Part shown: positions 43,297 to 48,845 of the stretch, piece after piece | Layout of the letters: each line of letters begins with the position of its first letter | Numbering within the stretch: the stretch's first letter is position 1 | Source of the DNA: Paramecium tetraurelia | Taxonomy: Eukaryota | DNA length: 64,000 nt | Assembly: GCA_000165425.1 (NCBI GenBank) | Contig: CT867985.1 | Span: forward strand, 744,001-808,000 | Direction of reading: 5' to 3' | Notes under the pieces: model-generated | Database searches by the model: none | The model's input: only the letters and a program-made list of their open reading frames with translations | Told to the model about the DNA's origin: nothing | Made by a program: the position numbers and the translations under genes

Positions 43297-45830
43297 ATGT
43301 TCAGATCACAAGAAATGAGTTATTTTTAATTAGTGATGCCCTAAGACAGTGCGTGGACTATCATGGATTAATTAGGTTATTTAAGTAAAGTGGAAATTAT
43401 TGATCATAATCGTAATGAAGCCTTAATCAATAGACCATTTGCAAATTACGTTAAAAGGTAAATCATCTATAATAACTATATAGATGTGATGACTTGATGG
43501 TAAAAATTGAAAATATGCTTTAAGTGGCAAAGAATTTAAATTTGCTCTCTAATTATAAAAAAGGAAATTTGAAATAGTTTACAAATCAAGTATTCTATGG
43601 AATTTATTTATTGTTTATAGCAAAATTCACATACTCACACTTATCTTGATAAGATTGAAGAAGACATAAATAAAAGAACTTCATCTTTTCAGGAGTAAAA
43701 TAAGCATCTTGAATAACTTATTGATTAATCAGAATACATACAAAATTATATTGAAATTTTAATAGAAAGTCAAAGGTATTTAGGGGAGAATGCATTTCAA
43801 AATCAACAGACCTCAAAATTTGAATACTATGTTGGGATACTTAAAAATTAAGAATAATTATAGTATTTATGTTTAGTAGAATAGATTCCATCGAGTGATA
43901 TTTAGAGTGACCAAAGGAAACTCCTATGTTCATTTGAAGAGGATGAATGAGAAGTAATCAATTTTCATCGTTTTATTTCCAAATATAGGAAACTATGGAA
44001 AATAAAAGATCCAAAAAATTGTAGAATAAGTATCCTTAGGAAAGTTTGCTTTGCCTTAGAATCTGTTGGAATTTGAAAAAAAATTATATGAATTGAAGAA
44101 TAAAGAAGCTGAATATATTAATGTAATTTACAATACAGAATATAGCTTATAAAAATGACTCAGAATTAACTATGCTAATGCATATCAAATATGTTAGTAA
44201 TAAGAAATGGATTACCTTTGATAGAATATTATAAGTTTTATTTAATCAAAGAAAAGGAACTTTACAAAGAGCTGAATAAGTTAAAAATGCAAGGCAGGTT
44301 GTTCCTAGGAGAACTATGGGTTCCAACAAAAGATATTTAACAATTAGAACAAACTATATAAGTGATTAAGGAATAGCAATCAAATAATCCTGGGGGTTAG
44401 TTAGCCTAAAAGAGTCCTCCTGATTTTCTGTAGAAACCCACTTATTTCAAATTAAATGAGTTCACTTAGGTATTTTAAGAGATAGTCAACACATATGGGA
44501 TTCCAAGATATCAAGAGATAAATCCTGCAATAATAACAATAATTACGTTTCCATTTTTATTTGGAGTAATGTTCGGAGATATAGGTCATGGATTTGTATT
44601 ATTTGTGTTTGGATCTTATCTGTGTTTGTTTAAGAATAAATCCTTCTACAATCTAAGATATCTAATCCTATTGATGGGTGTATTTAGCTTTTATTCAGGA
44701 CTAATTTATAATGATTATTTGAGTTTATCCTTAAACCTATTTCAAACTTGTTTAGGATCAGAGGATTAATGTGTCTACCCATTTGGAATTGATCCAATGT
44801 GGGGAGACCATTTAGAATTCAACGATTCATTTAAAATGAAGTTAAGCATCATAATTGCATTTTGTCATATGTTATTGGGAGTTTCTTTGAGTGGTTTAAA
44901 TTATCTATTTTTGGAGGATTGGCTACGATTAACTTGTAAATTCATTCCATAATTATTATTTTTGATATGCACAATTGGGTATATGGTATTTTTGATAATA
45001 TACAAATGGTTGACACCTTTTGAACCATAAAATGCCCCAAGCATAATCACTACAATGATATCAATGATTTTGAATTTAGGGAGAATATCAGGTCCTTAAA
45101 TGTGGGAAGGAGACTCTTAGAACTATGTTTAATATTGTCTTTTAAGTATGTATTTTATTTAGCTTCTAGTAATTTGTATCATCACAATACCTTGGATGTG
45201 GTTACCATCAATTATCAGTCACTTGGTAAGAAGGAAAAGTCATTAATAAAGTAAAGATAAACTTAAGACTCACAGAGTAGATTATGGATAATTAATAGAA
45301 GAATCAGGAGTTGAAATGATCTAAACTAGTTCTTATAGTCATGAGTAAACTGATGTAAAATAGAATAAAGAATTGCAAGACTCAAAAGTGCAGATTTAAT
45401 AAAAGGAGCATAATTCACATTTAGGTATTGAAGATATGATTGTCCATGAAACCATTGAAACATTGGAATATGTCCTTGGGGTAATATCAAACACTGCAAG
45501 TTACTTAAGATTATGGGCATTAAGTTTGGCTCATTCTTAACTCTCACAAGTTTTCTTTGAATTGTTGCTCGTACAACCAATTAATCATGGATAACCAATT
45601 AGTTTAATGATAGGGTATCCATTTTGGGCTTTGATAACTTTTGGTGTTCTGATGTGCATGGACAGTATGGAGTGTTTTTTGCATTCCTTAAGATTGCATT
45701 GGTAACTATGAGTCATTTAGAATATAGGGTCGAATTTTAGAATAAGTTTTTTAAAGGCGACGGTGTCTAGTTTAAGGCCTATTCGTTTAGAGATAGAATC
45801 AAGGACAGTATCAATTTAGAATCGTAGTGA
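43297..45830 (+). CDS. ATP6V0A: V-type H+-ATPase V0 subunit a
   Basis: [58 protein letters not shown] (essential Arg), LRLHWVEF. Confidence 0.96.
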
Positions 45831-45919: not shown

Positions 45920-46320
45920 ATGAATAAGAGAGTTGATCCATATTAATTAAATATTGGTTATGAAAATGACATAACTAAGACTAATATTTTAACTAATGGG
46001 GATTACTTAAGTTCATAAGGAGTTGAGAATCAGATGAATCTTCCAACAGAGCTTGATGGTATATGATGAATTAAACAATTTAAGATCATGAAGGGCCCAC
46101 CCTTTTCTATTGTCATCATTGCAAAATGGATTCAGTTTCAACTTGTGAGTATTAGGCTTCGAGTTAAACATTTCTTTGTGCATTTCTTCTATTTTTTATT
46201 CTCAACCTTTTTGGTTGTCTAATCCCTTATTATTCAACTGCATGTAAAGACAGAAGGCAAATATGTCCACGATGTAGAAAATTGGTAGGAATCAAATATT
46301 ATAATGCGTGTGCCTGTTGA
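45920..46320 (+). CDS. LITAF-domain zinc-ribbon membrane protein
   Basis: CHHC, hydrophobic hairpin, GCLIPY..CKD..ICPRC; one intron. Confidence 0.88.
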
Positions 46321-46366
46321 AAACACAATTTACAATCTTATAATTTGATTGATAATTATTTATTGT

Positions 46367-46875
46367 ATGATTGTTAATTAAATTTATTAACCAGTTGAAT
46401 TCATTTATTCATATACGATAGGTGGAAAGGAACAGTAGCATTTATAACTAAAAAATCAATTGCCTTAAAAGAAGAGAAATCTTACAGAAGAAGATAGAAG
46501 GAAAATAAAAAATGAAATCTAAAATGAGTTTAACAAAAAGAAAACTCTTAAGAAAAAAATACAAAAGCAAATTATTATAAAAGTAAACCATAAAAAATAC
46601 TTAAAATTGTACAAGAATACATATTTATTTGTAGATTTATTAAATTGAAGAGTAGAAAAAATAAAGTGAAAAAACTATTACTTGGAAAGAAAATTAAAAT
46701 CATAAAACGAGAGAGAATCTTCCAATTGGCTTAGGATGATGTAGATTAGTAGGTAAAAGTGAAGGATGCCTATGATAAAGAATATGATAAGGGTAAAGTT
46801 AAGAAAATTAAGAAGAAGAGAGAAAAATAAACTTTAGATTTTGATTAAGCATATAAATTAAAATATAATAAATGA
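46367..46875 (+). CDS. Small Lys-rich, probably nucleolar protein with YDKEYDKGKVKK motif
   Basis: Open frame ATG 46367 to TGA 46873-46875 with intron 46609-46634; the middle segment looks off-frame (see findings). Confidence 0.6.
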
Positions 46876-48845
46876 ATTTAAAAGATGAATAATTTAATGA
46901 AGAAATCTGCGTGAAAATAAAGACTTTGGATAATCATACTCTAGATGTTCGAATTAAATAAAGCTCAACGGTGAACGATCTTAAAAATTTAATCGAAATA
47001 GTAACTTATCATGATTAGCCAAGTCTTCAACCATCCCATCATCGAGATAGAGATTACTATTTAAGGGAAGGTAACTTAATAATGAGGATACTTTGGTTTC
47101 TTTGAACATTGAGGATTAATGCGTTGTTCATTTGGTTGCCAATATGCCTGAATTTGAATCATCCCCTTTAAATAGAGGACTATCTACTAGTTCAATCGAT
47201 GAGCACGATAATAGAAATAGTTGTATTTAAATAATAAATATACAGTCGATGTACAAGAGAGCAGAAGAAACTCTAGAAAAAAGGTTCTATAGCAAAGGTT
47301 ACATGGATTTTAATAATTGCCTACAAGGAATTCCTTATAACAAAATGTTATGACTTTACACAATCTTTTATAATCATTCAATACAGTGGCTGAAGTCATC
47401 GAGCAAGGCTAAATATTTGCCCAGAAGGACTTTGAACTCGGTTAATGGATTGATTTTAAGGATTCCTATGGTGAATGGCTTGAAGGTTATATTGGCTAAA
47501 AATAATAAAATCAAGTTTTGATAATTCATTAAAATGGAGAAGAATGGATAGGAGTTCCCTCTTTAAGATTAGCCTTATTCAGATCCCACACTATACAAAA
47601 AACTTATCACATGTCTCCCATCTTAAATAATCACGAATAACAATAGTTATGGACCTTTAGCGAACTGCTTGGTCAAACGGCTATGTTGTTATCCAGGGCT
47701 GGCAATATGATGTCTAGATTGGCAGATAGTGTTGAAGACAAGTCAATTCCTTAAAATAAAAAGGCTGATATGTCCAATCTTATTACTGGAATGATTGAGG
47801 AACAAAGAAGGATTCAGGAAGAAAAAGTGGAGAAATAAGATGATGTTACATCTCTGAAATCTATGAAGTCCATGAAATCCGACAAGATATCTATTGATTA
47901 TGAAACATCATCAATTAAATCGATGAAGTATATTGTTGAACTAATTAGATCTGACATCTCCAAATTGACTACTTATTTCATTGGCCATAATCATAACACT
48001 ATGATGGCCGAAAATATTGCAGAAGAAGAGGAGAACAGCAGTTAGGACATGTCAGTTGATAATCAAAGAGATGCGGCCAACATTTCCAAAGAATTTAAGG
48101 AAAATTATGCTTATTATGAGACTTCTTTGCTGGCTGCCTAATTAGCCCCTTTAGCTGATAGACTAGGGAGATTATTGTATATTTTCATCTTAACTTTAAT
48201 AGAGTTGATTTATCCCCATATCTTGCCTTGAGTGGAGCCAACATTAACAAGTATCTTTATGTTATATGAAGTATCTTTCAAAATCATCCTAATTCCAATA
48301 TATCCAATTTATCCATCATTACTAATGAAGGCAGTCAATATTCAACTTAAGCTAAGCAATATTATTTTCAAGTGCCTATTTTGTTAACACCTTTTGAATT
48401 GCATACACAATCCTAATAGGGAATATCAGCCAACAGAATTGTAGGAGATAATGTCGACATCTTAAATCATTTAAACAACAATAATAATAGTAATAGCAAT
48501 AGCAATCCTCGATAAAAAAAAATATCAAAAAAAGAGGAGGAAGAAAAGTAACAGTTTGTTACCTTATCTAAGTATAAACCAACTTAATAATATCATTCAT
48601 CATATTAGTAATAGTAATAACAATAATAATTGTAATAACAATAATAGTAATAACAATAATAGTATTAATAATAAATGAAAGAAGCCAATTTTTAAGTTAT
48701 TGATTAGGATGATTCCTAACAATTATAACAATATTAATCATCAAAGAAATAATCAACTGATGGCCAAATTAAAAAGAAAAAGAAAGGCAAAGAAGTATCT
48801 TTTTCAGAATAAATTAATCAACTGAAAAAGGACAAATAGTTTTGA
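46872..48845 (+). CDS. Ubiquitin-like (UBL) domain protein, BAG6-like, with Tudor/MBT-like module and poly-Q
   Basis: VKIKTLDNH..TVNDLK..RQRLLFKGRQL..VVHLV; FELGQWIDFKDSYGEWLEG; QLAPLADRLGRLL.DLSP. Confidence 0.85.
48607..48675 (+). repeat. (TAA/TAG/CAA)n tract encoding poly-Gln
   Basis: In frame within the UBL gene; Gln codons are mainly the reassigned stops. Confidence 0.8.

What the first reader, a model, noticed from the sequence alone, without database searches (positions are those of the whole stretch)
46860..46890. ATGA stop-start overlap between two co-oriented eukaryotic genes
Seen: the upstream gene ends AAT AAA TGA (46873-46875), while the only possible start of the UBL gene is ATG 46872-46874. 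An in-frame TGA lies at 46842 and the UBL fold starts about 12 codons after the ATG. This 4-nt ATGA overlap is typical of bacterial operons and viral termination-reinitiation, not nuclear genes. Inference: either the UBL promoter and TSS lie inside the upstream CDS, or a bicistronic/coupled message exists, or an AAA-stop frameshift (analogous to Euplotes AAA-TAR) fuses them, or the upstream gene is decaying and lost its original stop.
Basis: partly seen in the sequence, partly recalled or inferred. Interest (0 to 1): 0.7.

Follow-up and report, generated by a model that had tools for sequence, protein, structure and literature searches.

The report
Four-base overlap of two Paramecium genes
Two real neighbouring genes of the ciliate Paramecium tetraurelia probably share four bases (the stop of one overlaps the start of the next), an extreme but unsurprising case of this organism's very tight gene packing.

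Summary
The window is Paramecium tetraurelia macronuclear DNA (TAA/TAG = Gln). The letters are as described: ATG 46872-46874, TGA 46873-46875, in-frame TGA 46842-46844. Both genes are real. The downstream one equals an archived 626-aa protein with an N-terminal ubiquitin-like domain. It has a 89%-identical ohnolog with the same first 31 residues. The upstream one is a lysine-rich orphan, expressed from the + strand and conserved in P. sonneborni. The archived P. tetraurelia model avoids the overlap by splicing a 20-nt intron and stopping at 46842. The unspliced 160-aa reading has the length of the P. sonneborni protein and matches 24 of its last 27 residues. RNA depth does not dip at that candidate intron. 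I favour a true 4-nt overlap (0.6) with two separate, overlapping transcripts. In this reading the downstream promoter lies in the AT-rich last codons of the upstream gene. A +1 frameshift fusion is excluded (stop after 4 codons). A splice fusion has no candidate of normal intron size. A bicistronic message is neither shown nor excluded. Start and poly(A) sites, and DNA of the ohnolog or other species, could not be obtained. Interest is modest.

The parts
46063..46320 (+). LITAF-like zinc-ribbon gene (context; the gene before the orphan). Its stop lies only 46 nt before the orphan's ATG.
   Evidence: PF10601 zf-LITAF-like, E 1.2e-16. RNA depth falls to 0-0.08 at 46304-46354.
46367..46608 (+). 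Upstream lysine-rich orphan gene, exon 1 (ATG 46367)
   Evidence: Identical to the N-terminus of archived P. tetraurelia protein P0002. Conserved in P. sonneborni P0001. + strand RNA depth is 2-7.
46609..46634 (+). 26-nt intron of the orphan gene (GTA...TAG)
   Evidence: Needed to reproduce P0002, and the ungapped alignment with P0001 runs across it. RNA depth minimum at 46559-46660.
46635..46875 (+). Orphan gene exon 2 in the one-intron (160-aa) reading, ending at TGA 46873-46875
   Evidence: The 160-aa product has the same length as P. sonneborni P0001: 126 of 160 identical without gaps, last 27 residues 24 of 27. + strand RNA depth is 2.7-3.4 (X21) and 0-2 (X22).
46793..46812 (+). Candidate 20-nt intron (GTAAAG...TTAAG) used by the archived 143-aa model. 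Probably not, or only partly, spliced.
   Evidence: Splicing it reproduces P0002 exactly. The bin 46763-46813 shows no depth dip (2.94 against 3.41 and 2.69 in X21), whereas bins holding the 3 accepted introns of the laid stretch are lower than both neighbours in 2 cases and lower than the wider flanks in the third.
46842..46844 (+). TGA: in-frame stop 10 codons before the UBL ATG, and the stop of the archived two-intron orphan model
46840..46899 (.). AT-rich trough (10-13% GC) centred on the junction. Inferred place of the UBL gene's transcription start.
   Evidence: 30-nt GC profile; the same signature is seen at 46330-46389 around the orphan's ATG. TIRs are described as AT-rich and close to the ATG in passages of the 2026 bioRxiv preprint.
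46872..46875 (+). ATGA: the UBL start codon (46872-46874) overlapping the orphan stop codon (46873-46875)
46872..47000 (+). UBL gene exon 1 (first half of the ubiquitin-like domain)
   Evidence: PF18036 E 2.5e-05 and PF00240 E 5e-04 on this exon alone. The spliced model equals P0153.
47001..47023 (+). 23-nt intron 1 of the UBL gene
   Evidence: Needed to reproduce P0153
47024..47222 (+). UBL gene exon 2 (second half of the ubiquitin-like domain)
   Evidence: PF00240 E 3.9e-10, profile positions 34-71 of 72
47223..47245 (+). 23-nt intron 2 of the UBL gene
   Evidence: 10 reads of X22 fit up to 47222 and go on with TCGATGTACAAG, which is the sequence from 47246 on (table 7)
47246..48176 (+). UBL gene exon 3 (linker, Tudor-knot-like barrel, Ser/Lys-rich middle)
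   Evidence: Distant homologues match this part, and Pfam finds Tudor-knot at the corresponding place in P0011 (E 4.5e-07) and P0075 (E 9.9e-06).
48177..48202 (+). 26-nt intron 3 of the UBL gene
48203..48250 (+). UBL gene exon 4
48251..48271 (+). 21-nt intron 4 of the UBL gene (contains the in-frame TGA at 48268-48270)
48272..48845 (+). UBL gene exon 5, including the stop TGA 48843-48845

Best explanation
Two independent, co-oriented protein-coding genes of Paramecium tetraurelia are packed so tightly that their coding sequences share four bases. A 160-codon, lysine-rich, lineage-restricted gene (46367-46875, one 26-nt intron) ends at TGA 46873-46875. A 626-codon gene for a protein with an N-terminal ubiquitin-like domain (46872-48845, four introns) starts at ATG 46872-46874.

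Shown here: both genes exist, both frames are as stated, the region is transcribed from the + strand, and the long C-terminus of the upstream protein is conserved in P. sonneborni.

Inferred: each gene has its own mRNA. The UBL gene's transcription would start some 10-30 nt before its ATG, inside the last ~10 codons of the upstream CDS, which form an AT-rich trough. The upstream mRNA would be cleaved and polyadenylated a few tens of nt inside the UBL gene's first exon. The two transcripts would therefore overlap, and the ribosome would find 46872 as the first AUG of the short-leadered UBL mRNA.

The arrangement is easy to reach in this organism. TGA is the only stop codon, so any start of the form ATG-A supplies the next available stop for a neighbour reading one base later.
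For: Gene 2: the spliced window model is letter for letter the archived P. tetraurelia protein P0153 (626 aa). PF00240 covers residues 14-84 (E 7.6e-18). An in-frame TGA lies at 46842. The ohnolog P0154 (608 aa, 89% identical) has the same first 31 residues. All 5 full-length distant homologues scanned (P0011, P0039, P0046, P0075, P0021; of 10 proteins scanned, the other 5 being fragments or other architectures) carry the UBL 4-19 residues from their N-terminus.

Gene 1: 2 of 13 candidates passed, namely P. tetraurelia P0002 and P. sonneborni P0001. The one-intron reading gives 160 aa, the length of P0001. It is 126 of 160 identical without a gap: 24 of the last 27 residues against 102 of the first 133. 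The alternative spliced tail (EEERKINFRF) does not align with P0001. The P. sonneborni annotation used RNA-Seq transcription units plus EuGene (Gene annotation passage of PMC8354472).

RNA: in two oligo-dT stranded runs all reads on 46202-47600 bar a few in one run (X22, depth up to 0.98 in 46253-46354) have the orientation of a + strand RNA. Depth is 2-7 on exon 1 and 2.7-3.4 (X21) or 0-2 (X22) on exon 2. There is no dip in the bin that holds the candidate 20-nt intron, whereas the bins around the three accepted introns are low.

Context: an AT trough of 10-13% GC lies at 46840-46899, and there is no ATG between 46787 and 46871. [quoted passage not shown] They also give the TIS midspread as -26 to -11 (bioRxiv 10.64898/2026.09.19.752804). 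The preceding spacer (LITAF stop to orphan ATG) is only 46 nt.
Against: The archived P. tetraurelia model (P0002) splices 46793-46812 and ends at 46842-46844, which removes the CDS overlap. A 20-nt GT..AG intron ending in AAG is within the reported size range of 18-33 nt, and intron 1 of the UBL gene also ends in AAG.

RNA depth at the junction is only 0.7-4.4, with 58-nt reads. No joint, start, end or poly(A) loose end reached the listing threshold near 46872. Separate transcripts are therefore inferred, not seen, and continuous coverage fits a bicistronic RNA equally well.

No DNA of the ohnolog or of another species could be obtained, so conservation of the ATGA itself is untested. The conserved tail could be constrained as the UBL gene's promoter rather than as protein. 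A codon-usage score put the proposed frame first in all four orphan segments, but non-coding controls scored as high.
Confidence: 0.6

Rival explanations
1. There is no coding overlap. The 20-nt intron 46793-46812 is spliced, the upstream protein is 143 aa and stops at TGA 46842-46844, and a 27-nt spacer holds the UBL gene's short 5' leader. The transcripts would still overlap, but the CDSs would not. Both forms may also coexist.
For: This is the archived P. tetraurelia model, reproduced exactly from the window (P0002). The candidate has GT..AG ends, 20% GC and a length inside the reported 18-33 nt range. The same TGA is the in-frame stop before the UBL start.
Against: The spliced tail does not match the P. 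sonneborni protein, whereas the unspliced tail matches 24 of 27 residues and ends at the same residue. There is no depth dip in the bin containing the candidate, no listed deletion and no joint (depth only 2-3). I recall, from no call, that the archived model comes from the first, largely ab initio annotation.
Confidence: 0.2
2. The upstream ORF is not translated. The + strand RNA over 46355-46870 is a non-coding or leader transcript, and the conserved frame reflects constraint on regulatory DNA of the UBL gene.
For: There is no Pfam family (E up to 1) and no usable Atlas hit by features, with a low-confidence Atlas model of mean pLDDT 0.54. ORFs of this length arise by chance in this AT-rich, one-stop genome. 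The codon-usage test was inconclusive. No ohnolog copy was found among 13 candidates of 63-202 aa.
Against: A 160-codon frame with the same start, same intron phase, same stop and no indel is kept between P. tetraurelia and P. sonneborni, with 126 of 160 identities and mostly conservative changes (positives 88-92%). These species sit in different subclades of the aurelia complex according to passages of PMC8354472. Paramecium 5' leaders average 21.7 nt, so a 500-nt leader would be very unusual. Depth nearly vanishes between the LITAF gene and 46355, as at a separate transcript start.
Confidence: 0.08
3. One bicistronic mRNA carries both ORFs. Ribosomes terminating at UGA 46873 reinitiate at the overlapping AUG 46872, in the manner of bacterial coupling or viral termination-reinitiation.
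For: The ATGA overlap itself. + strand RNA is continuous across the junction, with similar depth on both sides in run X21 (2.69, 2.02, 4.63). The upstream tail is more conserved than the rest of the protein (24 of 27 against 102 of 133).
Against: No read or contig shown spans both CDSs. The only contig across the junction is 63 nt long (X6, 46847-46909). In run X22 depth rises from 0.73 to 4.39 to 10.2 across the junction, as expected of a separate, stronger start. The upstream ORF is 160 codons long; from memory, reinitiation after long ORFs needs special elements. The passages I read describe one TSS per gene close to its ATG, and the word 'polycistronic' is absent from two Paramecium papers and used only for trypanosomes in a third. 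The ohnolog P0154 keeps the same N-terminus although no upstream-gene ohnolog was found.
Confidence: 0.07
4. The two ORFs are fused into one protein by programmed frameshifting at AAA-TGA or by an unrecognised splice.
For: The stop is preceded by AAA, as at Euplotes +1 sites (that resemblance is recalled, from no call).
Against: The +1 frame reads EFKR and then TGA 46886-46888. The UBL frame is -1, and by eye there is no X XXY YYZ heptamer. No GT..AG candidate of 18-40 nt starting in 46640-46900 ends beyond 46837. The longer pairs I worked out by hand, not in a call (46793 or 46798 to 46849), have the wrong phase. Both proteins are annotated as separate in two species, and the UBL is N-terminal in all 5 full-length distant homologues.
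Confidence: 0.01

Closest known systems
Overlapping neighbouring transcription units in the compact Paramecium macronuclear genome (Arnaiz et al. 2017, PMC5485702; passages read)
   Same: Same organism and same cause: tiny spacers, 5' UTRs of about 20 nt and 3' UTRs of about 45 nt. The paper states that UTRs overlap and that genes 'sometimes overlap'. [quoted passage not shown]
   Different: Here the overlap would reach the coding sequences themselves (stop within start). Promoter, TSS and poly(A) signals would then all sit in coding DNA. I found no passage that counts or describes CDS-CDS overlaps (searches; passages).
ATGA stop-start overlaps of bacterial operons and viral termination-reinitiation (for example AUGA or UAAUG junctions; recalled, from no call)
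   Same: The same four letters and the same geometry: the stop of ORF 1 lies one base after the start of ORF 2.
   Different: Those systems work on one polycistronic RNA, which is not shown here. Paramecium genes normally have their own TSS 11-26 nt before the ATG. The upstream ORF is long (160 codons).
Euplotes +1 programmed frameshifting at AAA-TAA/TAG (recalled, from no call)
   Same: An AAA codon stands directly before the stop codon in a ciliate.
   Different: The +1 frame is closed after 4 codons, the downstream gene lies in the -1 frame, and the two products are separate proteins in two species.
Overlapping transcripts in other highly compacted eukaryotic genomes (microsporidia, nucleomorphs; recalled, from no call)
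   Same: Gene crowding forces transcripts to start or end inside neighbouring genes.
   Different: A different lineage and genome type. Paramecium's macronucleus is large (about 72 Mb, Table 1 passage of PMC8354472) and not reduced.

Membership tests
Overlapping neighbour genes of the compact Paramecium MAC genome | Both partners are real, expressed genes on the same strand | tested here: met
   P0153 equals the window model. The orphan is conserved in P. sonneborni. + strand RNA covers both.
Overlapping neighbour genes of the compact Paramecium MAC genome | The transcription units (here even the CDSs) share nucleotides | tested here: inconclusive
   The CDS overlap holds in the 160-aa reading, which is favoured by the orthologue's tail (24 of 27 residues) and by the absence of a depth dip. 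It is absent in the archived 143-aa model. Even then, a 27-nt spacer is shorter than the mean 3' UTR plus 5' UTR.
Overlapping neighbour genes of the compact Paramecium MAC genome | Each gene has its own TSS and poly(A) site | tested here: inconclusive
   No start, end or poly(A) loose end reached the threshold near the junction at depth 1-4.
Translational coupling / termination-reinitiation | Stop and start codons overlap or abut | tested here: met
   ATGA at 46872-46875, given the one-intron reading
Translational coupling / termination-reinitiation | Both ORFs lie on one mRNA and the second lacks its own 5' end | tested here: inconclusive
   Coverage is continuous, but the reads are 58 nt and no record spans both CDSs.
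Translational coupling / termination-reinitiation | Expression of ORF 2 depends on translation of ORF 1 | not testable with these tools
   Needs reporter or ribosome-profiling experiments
Euplotes-type +1 frameshift at AAA-stop | AAA codon immediately before the stop | tested here: met
   AAT AAA TGA at 46867-46875
Euplotes-type +1 frameshift at AAA-stop | The +1 frame is open and continues the protein | tested here: not met
   The +1 frame reads EFKR then TGA 46886-46888.
Ubiquitin family (PF00240), for the downstream gene | Full-length match to the profile above Pfam's gathering score | tested here: met
   64.5 bits against a cut-off of 25.4; residues 14-84 match profile positions 1-71 of 72.

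The most novel reading that the evidence does not exclude
A nuclear ciliate gene pair is expressed from one bicistronic mRNA. The UBL protein would be made by termination-reinitiation at the AUGA junction after translation of a 160-codon upstream ORF. The unusually conserved lysine-rich tail of the upstream ORF (24 of 27 residues against 102 of 133 for the rest) would be part of the reinitiation signal.
Probability: 0.06. Interest if true: 0.75.

Novelty: new member of a known kind. Interest (0 to 1): 0.3.

Why it matters
If the 4-nt overlap is real, the pair is a compact natural test case. It would show how a eukaryotic core promoter, a transcription start and a cleavage/poly(A) site can all work inside coding sequence, and how much such dual use constrains protein evolution. 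The upstream tail is the best conserved part of that protein.

The finding also bears on annotation. It suggests that the archived P. tetraurelia model of the upstream gene carries a spurious 20-nt intron, which would follow if the pipeline disallowed overlaps. It shows too that in one-stop-codon ciliates an ATG-A start can serve as the neighbour's stop.

It does not change the general picture, because Paramecium genes are already known to be packed to the point of overlap.

Tried and rejected
- Whole genome of the window: not held. The ohnolog locus could therefore not be read.
- P. sonneborni (or any other species') UBL orthologue: not found. One search gave 2 of 2399 candidates and one search gave 7 of 8000, and the only Paramecium proteins were the two P. 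tetraurelia ohnologs. Adjacency in P. sonneborni is therefore untested.
- The search of protein representatives with UBL exon 3: 150 hits at E up to 0.001, 9 at up to 1e-10, 0 at up to 1e-30. The nearest were short fragments, useful only for the distant full-length homologues.
- RNA holders: no listed holder of the stretch is on record as RNA. The two 'RNA?' contig runs I laid (X5, X6) gave 2 and 3 pieces only and say nothing about the junction, beyond a 63-nt colinear contig at 46847-46909.
- Codon-usage log-odds (1203 training codons): the proposed frame is best in all 4 orphan segments, but 3 of 3 non-coding controls also reach +2 to +7 in some frame. Inconclusive (one search failed on a frame slip of mine).
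- ORF statistics: ATGA ORF overlaps are at chance level.
- Family or fold of the orphan: no Pfam hit at E up to 0.01, and no usable Atlas hit by features.
- Literature: searches, with passages, gave the general compaction figures. None gave a count of CDS-CDS overlaps or any mention of this gene pair. PMC10066578 was irrelevant. bioRxiv supplements are closed, and I did not open the supplements of PMC5485702. Per-gene TSS or TTS tables there could bear directly on this junction.
- Earlier scan notes: nothing on this genome. The ATGA notes returned concern prokaryotes, viruses and fungal retrotransposons and were not used.
Full report
**What the window is.** GC content is 21-32% throughout. Long frames open only when TAA and TAG are read as Gln. 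Spliced models built from the window are letter for letter two archived Paramecium tetraurelia macronuclear proteins (P0153 and P0002). No whole genome is held for the window.

**The observation.**
- The upstream frame reads ...TAT AAT AAA TGA, with TGA at 46873-46875.
- The downstream frame reads ATG AAT TTA AAA..., with ATG at 46872-46874.
- The downstream frame is closed by TGA at 46842-46844, and 46872 is its first ATG.

As a bare ORF pattern this is not unusual. ATGA sites with at least 100 open codons before and at least 40 after number 29 of 511 on the + strand and 21 of 478 on the - strand. Thirty Markov shuffles gave a mean of 22.4, range 16-31. With a single stop codon and AT-rich DNA, long frames come cheap. 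The finding therefore stands or falls on whether both ORFs are genes.

**The downstream gene is real and starts at 46872.**
- Exons 46872-47000, 47024-47222, 47246-48176, 48203-48250 and 48272-48845 translate to exactly P0153, 626 aa.
- PF00240 (ubiquitin) covers residues 14-84 (E 7.6e-18), and both halves of the domain are recognisable on the separate exons.
- Ten reads of run X22 fit up to 47222 and continue with the sequence that follows 47245, which confirms intron 2 (table 7).
- A P. tetraurelia ohnolog, P0154 (608 aa), is 89% identical and shares the first 31 residues.
- I scanned 10 more distant relatives from the representative library. The five full-length ones (537-797 aa) all carry the UBL 4-19 residues from the N-terminus, and two of them (P0011, P0075) also have a Pfam Tudor-knot hit. 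The other five were three fragments and two proteins without the UBL.
- No other Met precedes residue 84. A product that contains the UBL must therefore start at 46872.

**The upstream gene is real too.** A search with its second-exon frame returned 2 of 13 candidates: P0002 (P. tetraurelia, 143 aa) and P0001 (P. sonneborni, 160 aa). Both begin at the ATG that corresponds to 46367 and share the 26-nt intron at 46609-46634.

They differ at the 3' end. P0002 is reproduced from the window only if a further 20-nt intron (46793-46812) is removed. The frame then shifts and stops at 46842-46844. Without that splice the window gives 160 aa ending at 46873-46875. That is the same length as P0001, with 126 of 160 identical residues and no gap. 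The last 27 residues match 24 of 27, better than the first 133 (102 of 133). The spliced tail does not align with P0001.

The P. sonneborni annotation was made with RNA-Seq transcription units and EuGene. That species is placed with P. sexaurelia, apart from the subclade that I take to hold P. tetraurelia, judging from Table 1's phylogenetic ordering (passages of PMC8354472).

The protein is basic (48 Lys+Arg against 18 Asp+Glu of 160). It has no Pfam family and no usable Atlas neighbour by features, with a low-confidence model. Its function is unknown. My guess, from composition only, is a nucleic-acid-associated or nucleolar protein.

**RNA.** I laid two oligo-dT, stranded, 58-nt paired runs of the same species label, X21 and X22, on 46100-47600.
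- From 46202 on, nearly all reads have the orientation of a + strand RNA; X22 has a few the other way (depth up to 0.98 in 46253-46354).
- Depth nearly vanishes at 46304-46354, between the LITAF-like gene and the orphan.
- Depth is 2-7 on orphan exon 1 and falls to 0-0.55 around the 26-nt intron.
- Depth is 2.7-3.4 (X21) and 0-2 (X22) on exon 2.
- Across the junction it runs 2.69, 2.02, 4.63 in X21 and 0.73, 4.39, 10.2 in X22.
- Bins holding the three accepted introns of the stretch are low relative to the exon bins around them. The bin holding the candidate 20-nt intron is not (2.94 between 3.41 and 2.69 in X21).
- No joint, deletion, start, end or poly(A) loose end near the junction reached the listing threshold.

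These data show that the orphan is transcribed. They lean against the 20-nt splice, and in X22 they fit a separate, stronger start for the UBL gene. They are too thin to prove separate transcripts.

**How it most likely works.** Passages I read give the following figures.
- Paramecium 5' UTRs average 21.7 nt and 3' UTRs 44.6 nt, with overlapping UTRs and genes that 'sometimes overlap' (PMC5485702).
- Half of P. tetraurelia mean TIS positions lie between -26 and -11, in an AT-rich zone. Those authors suggest that core promoter elements may overlap the neighbour's 3' UTR (bioRxiv 10.64898/2026.09.19.752804).

Here a 60-nt trough of 10-13% GC lies at 46840-46899, like the one at 46330-46389 around the orphan's own start. 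No ATG occurs between 46787 and 46871, so any start in that span gives an mRNA whose first AUG is 46872.

I therefore infer two overlapping transcripts. The UBL promoter and TSS would lie in the orphan's last codons, and the orphan's poly(A) site would lie in the UBL's first exon. Local packing fits this: 232 nt separate the V-ATPase a-subunit gene's end (my hand reading, 45830) from the LITAF-like gene, then 46 nt to the orphan, then -4 nt. The high conservation of the orphan's tail would follow from dual use. This is inference.

**Rivals.**
- The archived 143-aa reading (no CDS overlap, 27-nt spacer) remains possible, alone or as a minor isoform. The candidate intron has legal ends and length.
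- A non-translated upstream RNA is unlikely, given an indel-free 160-codon frame kept across the aurelia complex.
- A bicistronic, coupled message cannot be excluded with short reads, but nothing points to it.
- A +1 frameshift fusion is excluded, since EFKR is followed by a stop.
- No intron candidate of 18-40 nt ends beyond 46837, so a splice fusion at normal Paramecium intron sizes has no candidate either.

**What could not be done.** I could not obtain DNA of the ohnolog locus or of any other species. No P. sonneborni UBL orthologue turned up. Conservation of the ATGA itself is therefore open. Only one orphan copy was found in P. tetraurelia (lengths 63-202 aa only), so the ohnolog UBL gene probably lacks this neighbour.

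**Verdict.** This is a new instance of a known kind, gene overlap through extreme compaction in Paramecium, with a side result that the archived upstream model is probably wrong at its 3' end. Interest is 0.3.

Noticed in passing
window 47928-47948: A 21-nt GTA...TAG stretch inside UBL exon 3 is translated in the archived model P0153 (YIVELIR). Those 7 residues are absent from the ohnolog P0154. It looks like an unannotated intron whose length is a multiple of 3 and which has no in-frame stop, so its retention would be invisible to NMD.
   Followed up: partly
window 47096 and 47113: G>A in 6 of 15 and 7 of 18 reads (X21) and in 4 of 9 and 5 of 10 reads (X22). By my reading of the codons, 47096 G>A turns Val into Ile, as in the ohnolog P0154. 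These are probably cross-mapped ohnolog reads, not editing. Part of the depth on the UBL gene therefore belongs to the ohnolog.
   Followed up: partly
window 47114-47178: A 65-nt contig of much higher depth (47.7 in X6, 100.6 in X5) than its surroundings appears in two unrelated runs, and 6 molecules end at 47177 in X22. It may be a stretch identical in both ohnologs and bounded by variant sites, but this is unexplained.
   Followed up: no
window 46321-46366: Only 46 nt separate the stop of the LITAF-like gene from the ATG of the orphan gene. That is less than the mean 3' UTR plus 5' UTR, so these two transcripts probably abut or overlap as well.
   Followed up: partly
window 48251-48271: Intron 4 of the UBL gene is 21 nt long (a multiple of 3) and carries an in-frame TGA. 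From memory, that is the pattern reported for Paramecium introns whose length is a multiple of 3.
   Followed up: no
window 46367-46875 against the rest of the P. tetraurelia proteome: The UBL gene has a retained ohnolog (P0154), but no second P. tetraurelia copy of the orphan was found among 13 candidates of 63-202 aa. The two neighbours seem to have had different fates after the last genome duplication.
   Followed up: partly
window 46423: T>A in 3 of 5 reads of X22 and 0 of 2 reads of X21. It may be a strain polymorphism or noise at low depth.
   Followed up: no
window 45690-45830: The long V-ATPase a-subunit ORF (44155-45711) is closed by a TGA just before the conserved C-terminal motif, which continues in another frame (VEFQNKFF...) to TGA 45828-45830. 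A small intron near 45700-45725 must join them. I did not place it.
   Followed up: no
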